Shown here: positions 48,491 through 56,200 of the stretch, piece by piece
Layout of the letters: each line of letters begins with the position of its first letter
Numbering within the stretch: the first letter of the stretch is position 1
Source of the DNA: Escherichia coli
GTDB lineage: Bacteria; Pseudomonadota; Gammaproteobacteria; Enterobacterales; Enterobacteriaceae
DNA: 64,000 nucleotides
NCBI RefSeq assembly: GCF_048403405.1
Contig: NZ_CP183129.1
Direction: 5' to 3' (one strand)
Position numbers and translations under genes: made by a program
The notes under the pieces: generated by a model
What the model was told of the DNA's origin: nothing
Seen by the model: only the letters and a program-made list of their open reading frames with translations
Databases searched by the model: none

Positions 48491-48888
48491 GATATGGGGT
48501 TTTGGTCGTTGTTAATGAGCAGGACAATCATGACCGCCAACGACTGGATTCTCCCTTGGTTTATGTTGGTGCGCATAATGTATATTATGTTAAATGTGGT
48601 GGGTTTGTTCTTAAGTTCATGTGTTCCGCTCTTTCAGTAGCTTAACTGATGAATCAGTCAGCAGCTCTTGCCGTGCAAGCTACGCGGCGGTTCGTACCAG
48701 ATTGGCCACCTCCATCTCCTGGTTCGCTTTCCCCTCCCCCCGGTAAACCTCACCCAACGTTAATTAATGATGTCAGTATGTGGGCGCTATCCTCGTATGT
48801 AAAATCCACTGACGATTACGCCCATCTGTGAAAAAAAACTCACAATGCCATTCGATGCATCTCCATACTGAACGAGGCGTTATCGTCT

Positions 48889-49436
48889 TTATCGCCCCGT
48901 AGTGGATATCAGAAAATCAATCAGGGCCTTCACTCTTTTCGTTTTACCCGCGTTTTTGGGGTAATAGAGATACACTGGCGGGTAGGTTTTCCAGTAGCTC
49001 TCCATCACCGGAATAAAACGCTCCCTGTCCGGCTGTAACTGCCAGACAGGCTCAAACTTTCTAACTGTATACCCGGATATTGCTGACAGAATTCTGCCAT
49101 CGCAGGCTTAAGAATTAACAGGTAGGCAAAACGCGAGAGCGTAATTCGCACCATCCCAGAGGGCTCCTGATGCTGGTCGCGAATGCTTTCAAGTGAGTTT
49201 TCCAGCGACTCCACCGCCGCAGCGGTCTGTTCCAGCAATAATTGACCGGTTTCCGTCAGCTCTATACGGCGGGTCGTACGCACAAAAAGCGGATGGCCGA
49301 TATACTCTTCCAGCAGCTTTAGTGCATTGCTGACGGAGGGAGGCGTAATTTCCAGTTTCCTTGCGGCTGCCGAAATATTGCCCTCCCGCGCAATGCTCTG
49401 GAAGATGCGAATCTGGTTATAAAGAGCGTTATTCAT
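48889..49436 (-). pseudogene. LysR-family regulator, frameshifted and internally shortened
   Basis: N-terminal 143-aa ORF (49005-49436) has the LysR HTH (ISAAARKLEITPPSVSNALKLLEE) and stops prematurely; a second frame (48889 to about 49075) encodes a LysR-like C-terminus (...KTKRVKALIDFLISTTGR*). Total is about 180 codons against about 300 expected. Confidence 0.55.
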
Positions 49437-49571
49437 AATGTTTTCCTAAGCAATTCTCGCCTGATTATTAAGTACAGTCTAAAAATGCTTAAGTCAATGA
49501 CCCTCTAATCTTCCTGAAATACGCCTCTTATACTTTAGTCTCTTTCTACTACGACCTGAGTTCAGGAGACT

Positions 49572-49883
49572 ATGATGCGAATTTTATGTCTGGATATCCC
49601 TGCCCCTGGAGCATCGCTGGAGAAATATGCTCCGCACCTCAACGCTGAAGCGCTGCACGCCTGGGGATTGTATAAATCAGGCTTCATCCGCGACATCTAC
49701 TTCCGTCAGGACAGACCTGGCGTCGCTATTTTTCTTGAATGTGACTCTGTCGATGAAGCGATGAACGTTATGGCCGAATTCCCGTTGGCAAAAGCAGGCT
49801 TACTAAGCTTCGAGTGTATACCGCTTGGCTCCTTTATTAACTGGGAAAATCTCTTCGCCGATGAATTTAAAAATAAAGAGTGA
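49572..49883 (+). CDS. Small dimeric alpha+beta-barrel protein, muconolactone isomerase-like
   Basis: 103-aa ORF; the pattern R(P)GV-x-FLECDSVDEAMNVMAEFPL resembles the MLI family core (...VFDV-SxEAxH-x-LxxLPL...); AGGAG Shine-Dalgarno upstream. Confidence 0.55.
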   Translation: MMRILCLDIPAPGASLEKYAPHLNAEALHAWGLYKSGFIRDIYFRQDRPGVAIFLECDSVDEAMNVMAEFPLAKAGLLSFECIPLGSFINWENLFADEFKNKE

Positions 49884-49891
49884 GGACCGAT

Positions 49892-50581
49892 ATGAAACCT
49901 GCATATAAACCAGTGCTATGTGTCGTTTCCAGCCATCCGATTAAAGGCGCATCCGGTGTACCAACCGGTTTTTTCCTGGCCGAGCTGACTCATCCGCTGA
50001 AAGTACTGGAAGATGCCGGAATAAAAACAACAATAGCCAGTATTCGCGGGGGGCAGCCACCGGTGGATGGATTTGACCTCAGCGACCCTGTTAACGCCTG
50101 GTACTGGAACGAAACCGATTTTCAGCAGCGCCTGGCAACAACACCTGCGTTATCCGAGCTGAAAGGTGCCGATTACAGCGCAGTTTTCTTTGCAGGTGGT
50201 CATGGGACCATGTGGGATTTCCGTGATAATCAGGATGCCCAGCGTATTATCCGCGAAGTGTATGAAAGTGATGGGATTGTCTCAGCCGTCTGCCACGGGC
50301 CTGCGGCATTGGTTGACGCAAAACTCAGTAGCGGCGAATACCTGATAAAAGGGAAAAATGTGGCGGCCTTTACCAACAAGGAAGAGGAAGAAGTTCACAC
50401 AACAGATGTGGTTCCCTTCCTGCTTGAAACCGCACTTCGCGAGCATGGTGCGCTTTATCATGAAGCTCCAAACTGGTCTGAAAACGTGGTTACCGACGAT
50501 CGCCTTATCACGGGGCAGAATCCCGCTTCAGCACATGGGGTTGGTGTGGCGCTGTTAAATGCACTCCGCCGGACAGCTTAA
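49892..50581 (+). CDS. DJ-1/PfpI-family (class I glutamine amidotransferase-like) protein
   Basis: About 229 aa from MKPAYKPVLCVVSS...; conserved nucleophile-elbow Cys context (AVCHGPAAL); GAGGA Shine-Dalgarno before the ATG at 49892; 8 nt after the previous stop. Confidence 0.8.
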   Translation: MKPAYKPVLCVVSSHPIKGASGVPTGFFLAELTHPLKVLEDAGIKTTIASIRGGQPPVDGFDLSDPVNAWYWNETDFQQRLATTPALSELKGADYSAVFFAGGHGTMWDFRDNQDAQRIIREVYESDGIVSAVCHGPAALVDAKLSSGEYLIKGKNVAAFTNKEEEEVHTTDVVPFLLETALREHGALYHEAPNWSENVVTDDRLITGQNPASAHGVGVALLNALRRTA

Positions 50582-50654
50582 TTAATTCATCGTTACTCAC
50601 CTTACTTGGCCGGTTTAAGTCAGCCACGATCCGGCCTTTTTTCAGGAGCTGAAT

Positions 50655-51602
50655 ATGAAAACACTACCTCCAGTCGCACTAGGTACATGGTCCTGGGGCA
50701 CAGGCTTTGCCGGCGGCGACACCGTCTTTGGTAATCATCTTTCTGATACTCAGATGGCAGAAGTGTTCACTGCGGCCATGAGTAAGGGCCTCAATCTCTG
50801 GGATACCGCAGCAGTATATGGTATGGGGAGTTCCGAGACTGCGCTGGGAGCATTAGTCCGTCAGTTTCCCCGCGAGAACATAATTTTATCCACCAAATTC
50901 ACGCCGCAGATTGCGGACAAGCAGTCTGCGCAGCCTGTCAGCGATATGCTTGAGGCCAGCCTTGGGCGCCTGGGCGTGGACGCGATTGATATCTACTGGA
51001 TCCATAATCCCCTCGACGTCGAAAAATGGACACCAGGACTGATCCCACTTTTACAAAGCGGTAAGGTAAAACGCGTAGGTGTTTCCAACCACAATCTGGC
51101 ACAAATCAGACGCGCCAATGAAATCCTTAACGCTTCCGGTTATTCCCTCAGTGCAGTACAAAATCACTACAGCCTGCTCTATCGCGCTTCTGAAGAGGCC
51201 GGGATCCTTGATTATTGCCGACAAAATAACATCACGTTCTTTGCTTACATGGTCCTGGAGCAAGGCGCGCTCAGTGGTCGTTATGATTCAAATCATCCCA
51301 TGCCTGCCGGGAGTGGCCGGGCCGAAAGTTATAACGCAGTACTGCCGCAGATAGAAAGACTAACCGCCGCCATGAAAAAAATGGGAGCCGAAAGGAATGC
51401 CAGCGTGGCACAGATAGCCATCGCATGGGCTATTGCGAAAGGTACCCTTCCCCTCGTTGGTGCGACTAAAGTCCATCACGTTCTGGACGCCGCCTGCGCT
51501 TCAGACATCCAGTTACGCGATGAGGAAATCATCCTGCTGGAACAACTCGCCGCAGAGACCAGAGTGGATACACGAGGCGCCTGGGAAAAACCGATGGTGT
51601 AA
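50655..51602 (+). CDS. Aldo/keto reductase
   Basis: 315-aa ORF with AKR fold features (WDTAAVYG, IDIYWIHNP, GVSNH). Confidence 0.85.
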   Translation: MKTLPPVALGTWSWGTGFAGGDTVFGNHLSDTQMAEVFTAAMSKGLNLWDTAAVYGMGSSETALGALVRQFPRENIILSTKFTPQIADKQSAQPVSDMLEASLGRLGVDAIDIYWIHNPLDVEKWTPGLIPLLQSGKVKRVGVSNHNLAQIRRANEILNASGYSLSAVQNHYSLLYRASEEAGILDYCRQNNITFFAYMVLEQGALSGRYDSNHPMPAGSGRAESYNAVLPQIERLTAAMKKMGAERNASVAQIAIAWAIAKGTLPLVGATKVHHVLDAACASDIQLRDEEIILLEQLAAETRVDTRGAWEKPMV

Positions 51603-51704
51603 AGCCCGTCCGGAACAGACTGTCATGAATGACACACACGAACGGGCTGTTCCGGGTGATTCTAATCTGTATCACTTTTACTGCTTTGTATGAATGGTGA
51701 GAAT

Positions 51705-52381
51705 ATGAAAATCATTTGCCTCGAAGAACATTATCTCGACAGCGAGTTAGGGCGAGCGTGTATGCCTGTTGCGCTTGAGCAGGCACCTTTCCTTGGCGAC
51801 TGGGGGAAAACCGTCGCTGATGGTCATAATCCTGACCGACTCCCTGCTTTCCCGCTTTAATAAACTGAATGTGCCACTCTATCTTCATCCCGGGTTACCG
51901 CTTAAAAGCGTACAGCAGGCCTACTTCACGGGCTTCAGCGCAGAGGTCAACGCCAGGCTTTCTATGTTTGCCTGGGGCTGGCATCACGAAGCGGGGATCC
52001 ATTTGTTGCGGCTGATGTTATCGGGCGCATTTGATAAATATCCCAACCTGCAGGTAATCAGTGGCCACTGGGGGGAGATGTTACCCTTCTGGCTCCAGCG
52101 TCTTGATGACAGCCTACCACTGGCTGCAACGGGTCTGTCACGCACGCTAACGAGAACCTTCCAGGAACACGTTTACGTTACCCCGTCATATGCTAACACT
52201 GCCGCACTTCCAGTTTATCTACGCGTTAATGGGTGCTGAAAGGATCCTGTTCTCCGTCGATTATCCCTATCAGACCCTGGACGGTGTAAAAACCTTTATA
52301 GACAGTCTGCCCGTCAACAAGGCTGAAAAAGAGGCCATCGCGTTTCGCAATGCAGAACGTTTACTGGGCATCACGGTTTAG
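51705..52381 (+). pseudogene. Amidohydrolase-2 (ACMSD/LigW-like metal-dependent hydrolase/decarboxylase) with at least two frameshifts
   Basis: Three consecutive fragments in different frames: MKIICLEEHY... (51705 to about 51860), ...ISGHWGEMLPFWLQRLDD... (track ORF 51769-52239) and ...FSVDYPYQTLDGVKTFIDSLPVNKAEKEAIAFRNAERLLGI (52190-52381). Confidence 0.5.
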
Positions 52382-52531
52382 TTCACCGTTTCATGATGAT
52401 TGAGCACATTGTGATCAGCCGACAATTATTAGTTTTTGCCTAAAAGTGAATGAGCCTTTACTGCTCTAAAAAAATAATGTTGTCACTCTATACTGGATTT
52501 AATATTCACCAAAGATGTTTAACTGATTGAA

Positions 52532-53104
52532 ATGAAAAATATCCTTGTTATTTCAGGTCATCCTGAGCTTACCCATTCCGTCGCCAATGCCACTATTCTT
52601 GATGAAGTGGAGACCGCCCTTCCCGATGTTGAGATTCGTCGTCTGGACAGGCTCTATCCGGATGGCAAATTCAACATCGCGGCGGAGCAGGAAAGCCTGC
52701 TCAGGGCCGATGTGATTGTCTGGCAGTTCCCTTTTTCCTGGTATGGGCTGCCAGGATTAATGAAAAAATGGCTGGACGAGGTCTTTGTTCACGGCTTCGC
52801 GCATGGCTCAACGGCGAAACTGGGCGGTAAAAAGCTGATCCTCTCCTTTACAACGGGAGCGCCAGAGGAGCTCTATACCGTCGACAGTTTCTTTGGCCAT
52901 ACCATTGAAGAGTATCTAATTCCGTTCGAGACCACAGCAAAACTGTGCAATCTTGAGCTGCTGGAGCCGGTTTATACCTGCGGTATCAGCTATGCCGATC
53001 GGGATGCCGACAAACTCGCGCAGCAAAAAACGCTTGCCTGGGAACACGCTTCAAGGCTTGTCGATCTGCTCAATTCCGTCGTGAATAATCCAGAGGGAGA
53101 ATAA
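52532..53104 (+). CDS. Flavodoxin-like-fold NAD(P)H:quinone oxidoreductase (KefF/KefG/YwrO-like)
   Basis: 190 aa; N-terminus MKNILVISGHPELTHSVANATIL... and the FPFSWYGLPGLMKKWLDEVF block resemble KefG-type quinone reductases. Confidence 0.75.
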   Translation: MKNILVISGHPELTHSVANATILDEVETALPDVEIRRLDRLYPDGKFNIAAEQESLLRADVIVWQFPFSWYGLPGLMKKWLDEVFVHGFAHGSTAKLGGKKLILSFTTGAPEELYTVDSFFGHTIEEYLIPFETTAKLCNLELLEPVYTCGISYADRDADKLAQQKTLAWEHASRLVDLLNSVVNNPEGE

Positions 53105-53106
53105 CA

Positions 53107-54126
53107 ATGCAGTATACCCGGCTCGGTAAAAGTAACTTACTTGTTTCCCGCATCTGCATGGGATGCATGGGGTTTGGCGATCCGTCGACGGGTCAGCATA
53201 GCTGGACGCTGGACGAAACAGCAAGCCGCGACATCATTCGCTATGGCCTTGAAAAGGGCATCAACTTTTACGATACCGCTATAGCCTACCAGAATGGCTC
53301 CAGTGAGCGATACGTTGGCCGGGCATTACGGGAGATGGCGAAACGCGATGATATCGTCCTGGCCACCAAGTTTCTGCCGCGAACCCCCGCACAAATTGCC
53401 GGAGGGATCAGCGGAAAAGAGGCAATCGCTCAATCCCTTGACCAGAGCCTGAAGAATCTGGGGATGGACTATATCGACCTCTACATCTACCACATCTGGG
53501 ATTACAACACGCCCATTATCGACGTGCTTGAAGCGTTATATGCCGCTGTTACTGCTGGCAAAGTACGAGCTGTTGGTATTTCAAACTGCTATGCCTGGCA
53601 GCTGGCGAAGGCGAACGCCCTTGCTGAACGCGAAGGGCTGACGCCCTTTGTTTCCGTACAGAGCCACTACAATCTAATTATGCGCGAAGATGAACGGGAG
53701 CTCTTCGGCCTGTGCACTGAGGATAATATCGCAATGACCCCCTATAGCGCGCTGGCCAGCGGCCGCCTCTCTCGTAAAGAAGGCTATACACGGCGAGCCA
53801 CAGAGGATGACTATGCGCGTGGAAAATATGACAGCACGGCTGAACAGGATCGCAGCATTATTGAGCGTGTAGCCGAACTGGCCGAACGCCATCTGGTGTC
53901 AATGACGGAAATATCTCTCGCTTGGCTGCTGACAAAAGTCACATCACCTGTCGTAGGGGCTACAAAAAAAGCTCATGTCGATGGCGCGGTAAACGCAGTA
54001 AATCTTCAACTAAGTCCGGAGGAAATTCAGTTTCTGGAAGAAACCTACCAGCCGCATGTTCTGACGGGGATCATGGCGCAAAATACGCCGCAAACGAAAG
54101 ATGTTAAGCAGGTCTGGATGCGATAG
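53107..54126 (+). CDS. Aldo/keto reductase (Tas/YdjG-like)
   Basis: 339 aa; AKR motifs (FYDTAIAYQNG, IDLYIYHIWD, GISNC); starts 3 nt after the preceding gene, so probably co-transcribed. Confidence 0.85.
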   Translation: MQYTRLGKSNLLVSRICMGCMGFGDPSTGQHSWTLDETASRDIIRYGLEKGINFYDTAIAYQNGSSERYVGRALREMAKRDDIVLATKFLPRTPAQIAGGISGKEAIAQSLDQSLKNLGMDYIDLYIYHIWDYNTPIIDVLEALYAAVTAGKVRAVGISNCYAWQLAKANALAEREGLTPFVSVQSHYNLIMREDERELFGLCTEDNIAMTPYSALASGRLSRKEGYTRRATEDDYARGKYDSTAEQDRSIIERVAELAERHLVSMTEISLAWLLTKVTSPVVGATKKAHVDGAVNAVNLQLSPEEIQFLEETYQPHVLTGIMAQNTPQTKDVKQVWMR

Positions 54127-54241
54127 CCCTTATTCACTTTTCCTCCTCTCGTCTTTGAGAGCGCCAGTAGCGGTCGGTTACGTTCTTACCAGCACCAGTT
54201 GATCGAACGTCTTAAACAGTAACGTCAGTAAAAAGATCATC

Positions 54242-54967
54242 GTGAAAAAGACTTTTATGCTTTTAATTTGCATGCTAATAAGCAGCCCTGTCTTTGCAAC
54301 AAAACCGGACGCGCCGAATAAGCCGGAGATGAATATCTTCGAGCTCGGCATCAGACCCGATCGGGACAACGACTTTGCAGACGTGGCCAGACAGACGATT
54401 TCCGCTTCGGTTGATCATGAAGCAGGTACACTGGCGATGTATGCCCTGCAACGCAGCGACAATTCAGGTCAGGCATTCATGTTCGAACTCTATGAAAATG
54501 AGCGTGCTTATCGCAAACATCTCAATGCCGCCCCATACAAAGCATTCGCTGCTCGTGCAGCTGACATTATTGACAGGAAGAAGAAAATTACCCTGGAGCC
54601 ACAGTTTCTGGGCGACAAACACATCATACCGAATGAACGAACTATCAATAATCTGGTGATCGTCGAAGTAAAGCCTGAATTTCAGAGCGAATTTAGAAAC
54701 ATCGTCCTTCCTGAAATGGTCGAGTCGCTCAAAGTAGAGAAAGGCGTGTTAGCCATGTATGCCGGTACAGATTCAGAGACTCCAAAACGCTGGTATTTCT
54801 ATGAGATTTACGCCAGTGAGGAGGATTATCAACTGCACCGACAAACGCTGCACTTCCTGGAATACCTCAGGCAAACGGCGCATATGAGCGCCAGGAAGGA
54901 CGCAATCCCGGTAAAACCGGTATTTCTTCGTAACAAAGGCGGAATCAAACAGGAGCCGCAACGTTGA
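54242..54967 (+). CDS. Secreted protein with tandem ABM (antibiotic-biosynthesis-monooxygenase-like) domains
   Basis: 241 aa; N-terminal signal peptide (MLLICMLISSPVFA|TKPD); two repeats of an ABM-like ferredoxin fold (LAMYALQRSDN...FMFELYENERAYRKH and LAMYAGTDSETP...YFYEIYASEEDYQLH). Confidence 0.65.
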   Translation: MKKTFMLLICMLISSPVFATKPDAPNKPEMNIFELGIRPDRDNDFADVARQTISASVDHEAGTLAMYALQRSDNSGQAFMFELYENERAYRKHLNAAPYKAFAARAADIIDRKKKITLEPQFLGDKHIIPNERTINNLVIVEVKPEFQSEFRNIVLPEMVESLKVEKGVLAMYAGTDSETPKRWYFYEIYASEEDYQLHRQTLHFLEYLRQTAHMSARKDAIPVKPVFLRNKGGIKQEPQR

Positions 54968-54982
54968 CCAGTAAGGATTAAC

Positions 54983-55786
54983 ATGAAAAGCGTACTTGCA
55001 GCAGCGGCTATGTCGCTTGTTATTTCTGATTTTGCCAATGCTGAGGAAACAAGAGGTAAAGCTATGATGAAAATAGAACCGTCAGCGATTTCGGAAGCTG
55101 ATATTCGTTCCGTCTCACCGGCTCTCGCGCGCTTTGGTCGCGAAGCTATTACTGAAGATCTGTGGACACGCGACGCCCTCTCACCGAGGGATCGTAGTGT
55201 GGTGACCGTCGCCATGCTGATTGCCCGCAACCAGCCTGCCGAGCTTAAGCACTATATTGACGTCGCTCTCGATAGCGGCGTGACGCCAGCGGAATTATCA
55301 GAAATCATTACCCATCTGGCGTTCTACTCAGGTTGGCCAAATGCAATGTCAGCCGTCAGCGTGACCAAAGCAGTATTTGAAACTCGTGGCGTCACGCCAG
55401 ATGCGCTTCCTGACACTTCTCCGGACCTGCTTCCTCTCAATCAGGAAGCAGAAAAGCAGCGTTCAGAGACAGTGGAAAAAAATGTTGGCCGAATATCTCC
55501 AGGCTTGGTTAAATTTACTGCTGACCCACTGTTCCTGGATCTCTGGCAAAGACCCGCGCTAACCCCCCGTGATAGAAGCCTGATTACGGTCAGCGCGTTA
55601 ATCGCATCTGGACAGAGCGCGCAGATTGGCTATCACCTTAACAGAGCGATGGATAATGGACTTTCTGCTGAGGAAGCTGGGGAGATCGTTACCCAAGCCG
55701 CGTTTTACGCTGGCTGGCCAAACGCATTTACCGCTGCTCCGGTTGTGGGAGAGGTGCTAAACAATCGATCATCGAGTAAAAGGTAA
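54983..55786 (+). CDS. Secreted protein with tandem carboxymuconolactone-decarboxylase (CMD/AhpD-like) domains
   Basis: 267 aa; signal peptide (MKSVLAAAAMSLVISDFANA); two CMD-like repeats (LSPRDRSVVTVAMLIARNQ...HLAFYSGWPNA and LTPRDRSLITVSALIASGQ...QAAFYAGWPNA). Confidence 0.7.
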   Translation: MKSVLAAAAMSLVISDFANAEETRGKAMMKIEPSAISEADIRSVSPALARFGREAITEDLWTRDALSPRDRSVVTVAMLIARNQPAELKHYIDVALDSGVTPAELSEIITHLAFYSGWPNAMSAVSVTKAVFETRGVTPDALPDTSPDLLPLNQEAEKQRSETVEKNVGRISPGLVKFTADPLFLDLWQRPALTPRDRSLITVSALIASGQSAQIGYHLNRAMDNGLSAEEAGEIVTQAAFYAGWPNAFTAAPVVGEVLNNRSSSKR

Positions 55787-56200
55787 CATTACTGAACACT
55801 AAAACCTGACGCACATCACAACATTAGAACGAACAGTTCATGAACCAATAAGCGTAACATCGAGTGATTTATGGACAGCGTTTAACACAGTTATGAACCA
55901 AAACTGAGTTCATAACTGTGAGTTTGAATCGCCATTTGATTAATATCCATTTAAAACAGTTTGTTATGCTGTTTCTGGTGCTGAAGTCAATTATGTATAT
56001 CCCTCAAACCCAGAATAGTTAAATGGAATTTGAGTGATGCGAAGCGATTTTCCAGTCGTCGTTATTACTTCAGGGTTCCAGAACATAAAGCCTCTCCTCT
56101 TTCATGATTGGCCTGTGCATACCGGATATAGGCTGGCTGGTATGCAGGTTTGCCGTTTGCCGCATCTTCCCTGCGTTGAAGAGTCAGGCTGGCAAACCGC

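What the first reader, a model, noticed from the sequence alone, without database searches (positions are those of the whole stretch)
51705..52381. Amidohydrolase-2 gene broken into three frames
Three consecutive fragments with ACMSD/LigW-like similarity lie in different frames and sum to about 225 codons, against about 300 expected. This indicates at least two frameshifts and an internal deletion, supporting ongoing decay of the island.
Basis: seen in the sequence. Interest (0 to 1): 0.3.

Follow-up and report, generated by a model that had tools for sequence, protein, structure and literature searches.

The report
Dead amidohydrolase gene in E. coli
This is an ordinary dead gene: an E. coli copy of a metal-dependent decarboxylase-type enzyme gene, broken by a 356-base deletion and a 2-base deletion, inside a small acquired gene cluster that is visibly falling apart.

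Summary
Window 51705-52381 carries three pieces of one Amidohydro_2 (PF04909) gene in three frames, 224 usable codons in all.

Intact, syntenic orthologues are 344 codons long, not about 300. They occur in Serratia, Rahnella, Pantoea, Rouxiella, on Enterobacter plasmids and in unnamed assemblies.

Alignment to them shows two lesions, not three:
- a 356-bp deletion at 51839|51840, between imperfect direct repeats. It removes codons 46-164 and shifts the frame by itself.
- a 2-bp (GG) deletion at 52188|52189, inside the invariant PSGMLT motif.

Neither is a sequencing error. All 470 complete E. coli genomes that carry the locus have the 356-bp deletion, and about 363 of 468 have the 2-bp one.

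Other E. coli alleles add further damage: a 1-bp insertion, a 91-bp deletion, and H-to-N and D-to-G changes at metal-ligand positions. Variable codons among the remnants are 12 nonsynonymous to 5 synonymous, against 25:63 among intact orthologues (p = 0.0016).

One thing seen in passing is more interesting. The 7.4-kb island that holds this gene is inserted exactly at the outer edge of the chromosomal dif site.

The parts
51705..51839 (+). Piece 1: codons 1-45 of the ancestral gene (MKIICLEEH...GHNPDR), with the N-terminal E-E-H metal-ligand motif. The ORF then runs out of frame to a stop at 51858-51860.
   Evidence: tblastn (P0004 residues 1-45, 98%); blastn to the intact gene; RefSeq calls it a 51-aa 'hypothetical protein'
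51839..51840 (.). Junction of the 356-bp deletion (codons 46-164 lost, frame shifted). It lies between imperfect direct repeats: ATCCTGACCGA on the left (kept) and ATCCTGACTATGA on the right (lost).
   Evidence: the same junction in all five E. coli alleles aligned; no E. coli genome covers 80% or more of the intact gene
51841..52188 (+). Piece 2: codons 165-280 (SLLSRFNKLNVPLYLHPG...ISGHWGEM...YVTPS), with the LYLHP and SGHWGE histidines. The ORF runs on out of frame to a stop at 52237-52239.
   Evidence: Pfam PF04909 35.7 bits; tblastn; placement on the intact frame
52188..52189 (.). Site of the 2-bp (GG) deletion in codon 281 (Gly of the invariant PSGMLT motif). It is not in a homopolymer run.
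   Evidence: the allele with GG is present in about 105 of 468 E. coli carriers and the deleted allele in about 363
52190..52381 (+). Piece 3: codons 282-344 plus the stop (MLTLPHFQF...SVDYPYQ...LLGITV*), with the metal-ligand Asp of VDYPY.
   Evidence: Pfam PF04909 32.3 bits; tblastn
48596..56024 (.). Context: the 7,429-bp accessory island that holds the pseudogene. Gene order: LysR (minus strand), 103-aa ORF, DJ-1/PfpI, aldo/keto reductase, [amidohydrolase remnant], Flavodoxin_2 NAD(P)H oxidoreductase, aldo/keto reductase, ABM monooxygenase, CMD-family protein.
   Evidence: gene content; boundaries against K-12 and the empty site in strain A37
48568..48595 (+). Exact E. coli dif site, directly abutting the left end of the island.
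   Evidence: 0 mismatches; 0 matches expected by chance
49005..49436 (-). Truncated LysR regulator gene of the island (143-aa ORF left of 299 aa). A 353-bp deletion has its junction at about 49054-49057.
   Evidence: the deletion was not seen in any of 483 E. coli genomes with this segment
54140..54141 (.). Point where fuller copies of the cluster carry about 952 bp more (a DUF1330 gene and a second Flavodoxin_2 gene).
55992..56024 (+). Conserved right end of the island (TATGTATATCCCTCAAACCCAGAATAGTTAAAT). Its last 7 nt repeat the last 7 nt of dif.

Best explanation
Window 51705-52381 is a unitary pseudogene: the remnant of a 344-codon gene for a metal-dependent (beta/alpha)8-barrel enzyme of the amidohydrolase-2 / ACMSD superfamily, on its hydroxybenzoate-decarboxylase branch (LigW, gamma-resorcylate decarboxylase, 2,3-dihydroxybenzoate decarboxylase). 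The gene came into E. coli as part of a horizontally acquired, LysR-regulated cluster of reductase and detoxification-type genes. Shown: a 356-bp deletion between imperfect direct repeats removed codons 46-164 and shifted the frame; it is fixed in every E. coli copy examined. Shown: a later 2-bp deletion, still polymorphic in E. coli, shifted the frame again inside the invariant PSGMLT motif. Inferred: the deletion arose by slippage or illegitimate recombination, because the left repeat copy is kept and the two copies differ in length by 2 nt, which is why the deletion is 356 bp and not an in-frame 354. Inferred: no piece can fold or act as the enzyme, because the deletion removes three of the eight barrel strands (beta2-beta4) and 30 of 100 invariant positions, and the four catalytic or metal motifs now sit in three different frames. 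The remnant is drifting neutrally.
For: Three collinear alignments in three frames to intact homologues. Nucleotide alignment to an intact syntenic copy gives exactly two gaps, 356 bp and 2 bp, and 677 + 358 = 1035. Intact 344-349-aa orthologues sit in the same gene order in Rahnella, Pantoea, Rouxiella, Serratia, on Enterobacter plasmids and in unnamed assemblies. 0 of 470 E. coli genomes have the intact gene. The 2-bp deletion is polymorphic, about 363 against 105 genomes. Other alleles carry independent damage: a 1-bp insertion with D305G in the VDYPY Asp (MRSN346647), H9N in the EEH motif (DA33137, NRZ14408), and an extra 91-bp deletion (NRZ14408). Variable codons are 12 nonsynonymous to 5 synonymous among E. 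coli remnants against 25:63 among intact orthologues (Fisher p = 0.0016). Pairwise dN/dS is 0.3-0.6 among remnants against 0.06-0.13 among intact genes. The AlphaFold model of intact P0003 (pLDDT 88.8, pTM 0.90) matches 3nur, 2dvt, 4qs5 and 6m53 with TM about 0.8. Deleted residues 51-169 (349-aa numbering) cover strands E83-88, E122-124 and E152-155 and four helices, and 30 of 100 invariant alignment columns.
Against: There are no expression or protein data, so a residual role for a fragment cannot be formally excluded. RefSeq/PGAP annotates the three pieces as ordinary CDSs rather than as a pseudogene. One E. coli lineage (NRZ14408 type; protein cluster P0009 with 40 members) has an extra 91-bp deletion that fuses pieces 1 and 2 in frame into a 195-aa ORF. 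The selection test rests on only 17 variable codons from five hand-picked alleles. The first lesion could also be two events: a 354-bp in-frame repeat-mediated deletion followed by a small change.
Confidence: 0.95

Rival explanations
1. The frame breaks are sequencing or assembly errors and the gene is really intact.
For: Single-base indels are common errors.
Against: The main lesion is a 356-bp deletion, not a homopolymer slip. The second is a GG dinucleotide outside any run. Sequence identical to the window over 51400-52700 occurs in at least 7 independent complete genomes, and 317 genomes are at least 99% identical. All 470 E. coli carriers lack the 356 bp, and about 363 share the 2-bp deletion.
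Confidence: 0.01
2. The split gene is still functional, either through programmed frameshifting or as separately made fragments that assemble, or the fragments have taken on a new role.
For: PGAP calls the pieces CDSs. The remnant is kept in all carriers. One lineage restores a 195-aa in-frame ORF.
Against: 119 codons are missing, including three barrel strands and 30 invariant positions. All non-E. coli relatives encode a single ORF. Metal-ligand residues are replaced in some alleles (H9N, D305G). Variation is biased towards amino-acid changes. The in-frame fusion allele deletes the LYLHP histidine as well.
Confidence: 0.03
3. There are three independent lesions: an in-frame 354-bp deletion between the exact 8-bp repeats ATCCTGAC, then a small frameshifting change at the junction (TATGA to CGA), then the 2-bp GG deletion.
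For: The exact 8-bp repeats lie 354 bp (118 codons) apart. blastn can also align the junction to the right-hand copy with a 2-nt gap plus one mismatch.
Against: The junction sequence CCTGACCGA is identical to the left-hand copy, so one event that keeps the left copy of an imperfect 11/13-nt repeat explains it with no extra step. No E. coli allele shows the intermediate.
Confidence: 0.1

Closest known systems
Intact syntenic orthologues annotated 'amidohydrolase family protein': Serratia ficaria P0004, Pantoea stewartii P0006, Rahnella rivi L007, Enterobacter mori plasmids NZ_CP119171/NZ_CP071064
   Same: They are 91-98% identical in protein sequence over the retained parts (81-85% for the two Serratia loci L011 and L012). 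The neighbours are the same: LysR, small ORF, DJ-1/PfpI, AKR, [gene], Flavodoxin_2, AKR, ABM, CMD.
   Different: They have a single 344-codon ORF. The window copy lacks codons 46-164 and has a 2-bp deletion in codon 281.
PDB 3NUR, putative amidohydrolase of Staphylococcus aureus (structural genomics, function unknown)
   Same: It is the best solved relative of the intact protein: E = 1.3e-68, 35% identity, TM 0.80/0.91, with the same EEH, HP, GHWGE and DYPY motifs.
   Different: No substrate is known for either protein. The window copy is a remnant.
Non-oxidative hydroxybenzoate decarboxylases of the ACMSD superfamily: LigW (4INF/4QRN/4QS5), gamma-resorcylate decarboxylase (2DVT, 3S4T/4QRO), 2,3-dihydroxybenzoate decarboxylase (6M53, 7A19)
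   Same: About 30% identity, E = 1e-41 to 1e-45, TM about 0.8. The motifs carrying the metal ligands and the catalytic His line up (the residue roles are from my knowledge of these enzymes).
   Different: The substrate of the ancestral enzyme was not determined, and NCBIfam has no named family for it. True ACMSD is much more distant (E = 1e-15).
Xer-dependent integrative elements (IMEX): EludIMEX-1/EcloIMEX of Enterobacter, the gonococcal genetic island, CTX/TLC phages (PMC5357621, PMC7855592, PMC8790168)
   Same: This applies to the island, not the pseudogene. It sits exactly at chromosomal dif, has no recombinase gene of its own, carries cargo with a LysR regulator, has a precise empty site in other strains, and keeps the same end sequence in different hosts.
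   Different: Described IMEX are flanked by two XerC/XerD-type sites whose XerC arm and central region are conserved. Here the left site is a perfect dif, and the right end shares only the outer 7 nt of the XerD arm.

Membership tests
Pfam PF04909 Amidohydro_2 / ACMSD-superfamily decarboxylases (descent) | Significant profile match | tested here: met
   Pieces 2 and 3 score 35.7 and 32.3 bits against a gathering score of 26.4. Intact orthologues carry PF04909.
Pfam PF04909 Amidohydro_2 / ACMSD-superfamily decarboxylases (descent) | Metal-ligand and catalytic motifs: N-terminal E-x-H, His of 'YxHP', His of 'GHxGE', Asp of 'DYPY' | tested here: met
   All four motifs are readable in the window (EEH, LYLHP, SGHWGE, VDYPY) and align to 3nur and LigW. 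They lie in three different frames. The residue roles are from established knowledge of LigW and gamma-RSD.
Pfam PF04909 Amidohydro_2 / ACMSD-superfamily decarboxylases (functional member) | Complete (beta/alpha)8 barrel encoded by one ORF | tested here: not met
   The intact orthologue models as a barrel matching 3nur, 2dvt and 4qs5. The window lacks residues 51-169 (beta2-beta4 and four helices), and the rest is split over three frames.
Pseudogene (decayed unitary gene) | ORF disrupted relative to intact orthologues in conserved synteny | tested here: met
Pseudogene (decayed unitary gene) | Lesions are real, not sequencing artefacts | tested here: met
   The lesions are shared by 470 (356 bp) and about 363 (2 bp) independent complete genomes.
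Pseudogene (decayed unitary gene) | Relaxed selection on the remnant | tested here: met
   12 nonsynonymous to 5 synonymous variable codons against 25:63 in intact orthologues, p = 0.0016. Ligand residues are replaced in some alleles. The sample is small.
Pseudogene (decayed unitary gene) | No functional product | not testable with these tools
   Needs transcript, peptide and enzyme assays.
Programmed ribosomal frameshift gene | Frameshift site conserved in relatives, with full-length product restored by one shift | tested here: not met
   Relatives have one uninterrupted ORF. 356 bp of coding sequence is absent.
IMEX (Xer-dependent integrative element): the surrounding island | Integrated at chromosomal dif, with a precise empty site elsewhere and no integrase of its own | tested here: met
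   dif at 48568-48595 abuts the island. In K-12 and about 4,900 other genomes homology stops at the last dif base. Strain A37 has the empty site with the same flank. No recombinase domain was found in the island genes.
IMEX (Xer-dependent integrative element): the surrounding island | Second dif-like site (XerC arm plus central region) at the other junction | tested here: not met
   No site with 5 or fewer mismatches to dif exists other than dif itself. The right end shares only GTTAAAT. An exact TGTATA lies 25 nt inside the end, with poor arms.

The most novel reading that the evidence does not exclude
The pseudogene itself holds no novelty. The most novel reading left open concerns its carrier. 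The 7.4-kb cluster at window 48596-56024 may be a recombinase-less mobile element that targets the outer edge of the dif XerD arm, either as an atypical Xer-dependent element or as a dif-targeting insertion with a 7-bp GTTAAAT duplication. It moves a LysR-controlled reductase/decarboxylase cluster between Enterobacterales chromosomes and plasmids. The broken amidohydrolase, the deleted regulator and the missing genes would then record what happens to such cargo after it lands at the E. coli terminus.
Probability: 0.3. Interest if true: 0.5.

Novelty: already known. Interest (0 to 1): 0.12.

Why it matters
It matters little on its own: gene decay in accessory islands is routine. There are two practical points. 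First, RefSeq/PGAP lists the three fragments as separate proteins (WP_001327998.1, WP_001327999.1, WP_001322417.1) instead of one pseudogene, which inflates pan-genome counts. Second, the fixed 356-bp deletion and the polymorphic secondary lesions (2-bp deletion, 1-bp insertion, 91-bp deletion, ligand substitutions) form a small, datable series of decay steps that could mark lineages. The island's exact placement at dif is the part that may deserve separate study.

Tried and rejected
- **NCBIfam.** The scan of the intact protein gave no named family, so no substrate can be assigned.
- **Literature.** Searches for hipA/yneL, IMEX plus hipA, and EcloIMEX/EludIMEX found nothing describing this E. 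coli island or pseudogene. One search was rejected for syntax.
- **Second dif-like site.** I looked in the window and in all fetched loci. None has 5 or fewer mismatches to dif.
- **Terminal inverted repeats.** The island termini share only a weak 18-nt, 78% pair, with 8 nt (TGGGTTTG/CAAACCCA) shared and no equivalent in L016. I did not treat it as evidence.
- **'Intact' L006 as reference.** I considered it as a functional reference but noted H-to-N at its LYLHP histidine and a split upstream AKR. I therefore used L016, L018 and L007 for the controls as well.
- **Sequencing error and programmed frameshifting.** Both are rejected (see the rival explanations).
- **Host species.** I did not identify the hosts of the Logan contigs L006, L016 and L018.

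Full report
**What is at the coordinates**

The window is E. coli chromosome. Region 51400-52700 is 100% identical to several RefSeq complete genomes, and the locus is present in 475 of 5,426 genomes.

Between 51705 and 52381 there are three overlapping + strand ORFs in three frames: 51690/51705-51860, 51769-52239 and 52190-52381. Pfam Amidohydro_2 (PF04909) matches the second and third above the gathering score, at profile positions 128-192 and 227-289 of 289.

tblastn with intact homologues gives three collinear alignments. For Serratia ficaria P0004 (344 aa):

| P0004 residues | Window coordinates | Frame | Identity |
|---|---|---|---|
| 1-45 | 51705-51839 | 3 | 98% |
| 164-280 | 51838-52188 | 1 | 97% |
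| 274-344 | 52166-52378 | 2 | 80% |

**Placing the lesions**

A protein search found full-length relatives of 344-349 aa that are up to 98% identical. One of them, P0001, lies on contig L006 in the same gene order as in the window.

Nucleotide alignment of the window to that copy and to L016, L018 and L007 shows exactly two gaps inside the gene.

- **Lesion 1** is a 356-bp deletion with its junction at 51839|51840.
  - Intact left side: ...CATAATCCTGACCGA|AGCCGG...
  - Intact right side: ...GATCATCCTGACTATGA|CTCCCTG...
  - Window: ...CATAATCCTGACCGA|CTCCCTG...
  - The breakpoints sit in imperfect direct repeats, ATCCTGAC-CGA and ATCCTGAC-TATGA. The left copy is kept. Because the two copies differ in length by 2 nt, the loss is 356 bp and not an in-frame 354 bp.
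  - One event therefore gives both the 'internal deletion' and the first 'frameshift'. A two-step origin cannot be excluded, but no intermediate was seen.
- **Lesion 2** is a 2-bp deletion: TCA[GG]TATG at 52188|52189, in codon 281. It is not in a homopolymer.

The arithmetic closes: 677 + 356 + 2 = 1035 nt, which is 344 codons plus the stop. The expected length is 344 codons, not about 300.

**Not sequencing errors**

A search with the intact gene found 470 E. coli genomes with a match. None covers 80% or more of it; the best cover 68% in two pieces. The 356-bp deletion is therefore fixed in E. coli carriers.

A probe across lesion 2 taken from an allele that still has the GG gave three identity bands:

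- 91 genomes at 99% or above and 14 at 95-99%, which carry the GG;
- 363 at 90-95%, which is the 2-bp-deleted type.

The second lesion is real and polymorphic.

**Further decay in other alleles**

Alignment of five E. coli alleles shows different additional damage in each lineage.

| Allele | Status of lesion 2 | Additional changes |
|---|---|---|
| DA33137 type | GG kept | H to N in the EEH motif |
| MRSN346647 type | 2-bp deletion | 1-bp insertion; D to G in VDYPY; W to R |
| P15-25 type | 2-bp deletion | S to P |
| NRZ14408 type | GG kept | further 91-bp deletion that fuses pieces 1 and 2 in frame into a 195-aa ORF, which lacks the LYLHP histidine; also H to N in EEH |

On the 224 shared codons, variable codons among the E. 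coli remnants are 12 nonsynonymous and 5 synonymous. Among intact orthologues the counts are 25 and 63 (Fisher p = 0.0016).

Pairwise dN/dS is 0.3-0.6 among the remnants and 0.06-0.13 among intact genes. The counts are small, but the direction is clear: constraint is gone.

**What the gene was**

The best solved relatives of the intact protein are:

- 3NUR, a putative amidohydrolase of S. aureus with no known function (E = 1e-68);
- LigW 5-carboxyvanillate decarboxylase, 2,3-dihydroxybenzoate decarboxylase and gamma-resorcylate decarboxylase (E = 1e-41 to 1e-45);
- true ACMSD, which is much further away (E = 1e-15).

An AlphaFold model of intact P0003 (pLDDT 88.8, pTM 0.90) superposes on these structures with TM about 0.8.

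The motifs that carry the metal ligands and the catalytic histidine in this branch all align. They are E-E-H at the N-terminus, the His of LYLHP, the His of SGHWGE and the Asp of VDYPY. The residue roles come from published work on LigW and gamma-RSD, recalled from my own knowledge.

NCBIfam has no named family for the protein, so the substrate is unknown. 'Hydroxy-aromatic acid decarboxylase' is an inference.

The deletion removes residues 51-169 in the 349-aa numbering. That span covers strands 83-88, 122-124 and 152-155 and four helices of the model, and 30 of the 100 invariant columns of a 30-sequence alignment. Lesion 2 falls in the invariant PSGMLT motif. No fragment can form the barrel.

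**The surrounding island**

The gene sits in a cluster with this order:

1. LysR regulator (divergent, minus strand)
2. 103-aa ORF
3. DJ-1/PfpI protein
4. aldo/keto reductase
5. the amidohydrolase remnant
6. Flavodoxin_2 NAD(P)H oxidoreductase
7. aldo/keto reductase
8. ABM monooxygenase
9. CMD-family protein

The same cluster, with an intact amidohydrolase, is found in:

- Rahnella rivi, Pantoea, Rouxiella and Serratia chromosomes;
- Enterobacter mori plasmids;
- a contig with IncFII RepA and Tn3-family genes (L018).

Relative to the fullest copies (L016, L018), the window's copy has four differences:

- It lacks about 3.6 kb at the left end, holding two AKR genes, a small ORF and a second LysR gene.
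- It lacks 952 bp holding a DUF1330 gene and a second Flavodoxin_2 gene, with the junction at 54140.
- It has the 356 + 2 bp lesions described above.
- In this window only, it has a 353-bp deletion inside the LysR gene, with the junction at about 49054-49057 and a 143-aa ORF left.

The LysR deletion was not seen in any of 483 E. coli genomes that have this segment. It is either private to this isolate or, less likely, an assembly fault.

The other island genes are full length compared with their orthologues. 'Ongoing decay of the island' is a fair description.

**Seen in passing: the island abuts dif**

An exact dif site lies at 48568-48595. In K-12 and about 4,900 other genomes, homology to the window stops at the last base of dif. 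The K-12 sequence that follows dif resumes in the window at 56025.

Strain A37 has the empty site with the window's own flank type:

- A37: dif|TGAATTTGAGTG...
- Window: dif|[7,429 bp]|GGAATTTGAGTG...

The island's right end (...CCTCAAACCCAGAATAGTTAAAT) is the same in four different flank contexts: the window, L006, L014 (Enterobacter sichuanensis) and L016. L016 also has dif at its left end. The last 7 nt of the island repeat the last 7 nt of dif.

This resembles the Xer-dependent elements described in Enterobacter, Neisseria and Vibrio (PMC5357621, PMC7855592, PMC8790168). However, the expected second XerC/XerD-type site is missing, and the junction lies at the outer edge of the XerD arm rather than in the central region. 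The mechanism is unresolved.

**Verdict**

The finding is real and correctly interpreted. It needs two corrections: there are two lesions, not three, and the ancestral gene had 344 codons, not about 300. It is an ordinary pseudogene of a known enzyme family in a decaying acquired cluster, and its interest is low.

Noticed in passing
window 48568-48595 (dif) and 48596-56024 (island); right end 55992-56024: The whole 7,429-bp island is inserted exactly at the outer edge of the chromosomal dif site. K-12-type genomes and strain A37 have the precise empty site. The island's right end is the same in four different flank contexts and repeats the last 7 nt of dif (GTTAAAT). There is no recombinase gene and no convincing second dif-like site. 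It may be an atypical Xer-dependent or dif-targeting mobile element.
   Followed up: partly
window 49005-49436 (- strand), junction about 49054-49057: The island's LysR regulator gene has a 353-bp internal, frameshifting deletion, leaving a 143-aa ORF of an original 299 aa. None of 483 E. coli complete genomes with this segment shows the deletion, so it is private to this isolate or an assembly fault.
   Followed up: partly
window 54140; compare L016 12809-13760 and L018 12936-13888: All E. coli copies examined lack about 952 bp that in fuller copies of the cluster holds a DUF1330 gene and a second Flavodoxin_2 oxidoreductase gene. E. coli also lacks about 3.6 kb (two AKR genes, a small ORF and a second LysR gene) present between dif and the cluster in L016.
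   Followed up: partly
L006 4229-5263 and 3179-4127: The closest 'intact' copy (Logan ERR4045343) has H to N at the LYLHP metal histidine, and its upstream aldo/keto reductase is split into two ORFs. Other hosts seem to be degrading different genes of the same cluster.
   Followed up: no
L018 15541-21079: An intact copy of the cluster lies next to a resolvase, a Tn3-family transposase, IncFII RepA and an IS110 transposase, so it is plasmid-borne. Enterobacter mori plasmids of about 213 kb also carry it.
   Followed up: no
window 51705-52381; RefSeq WP_001327998.1, WP_001327999.1, WP_001322417.1: RefSeq/PGAP annotates the three fragments as separate protein-coding genes ('hypothetical protein' and two 'amidohydrolase family protein') rather than as one pseudogene.
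   Followed up: yes
window 41271-46691 and 56189-56455: The ECSE_1600-family autotransporter gene is an intact 1,806-codon ORF here but is frameshifted in K-12. The helix-turn-helix remnant after the island (yneL-like, missing its N-terminus) is a pseudogene in both. Strain A37 has the empty dif site but has lost hipBA and part of the lsr operon.
   Followed up: no
L014 4684-4795 compared with L016 3064-3100: In Enterobacter sichuanensis the sequence after the island's right end resembles the sequence that follows dif at the left end of the L016 island. Three assemblies break within 650 bp after the right end. This hints at tandem arrays of related elements.
   Followed up: no
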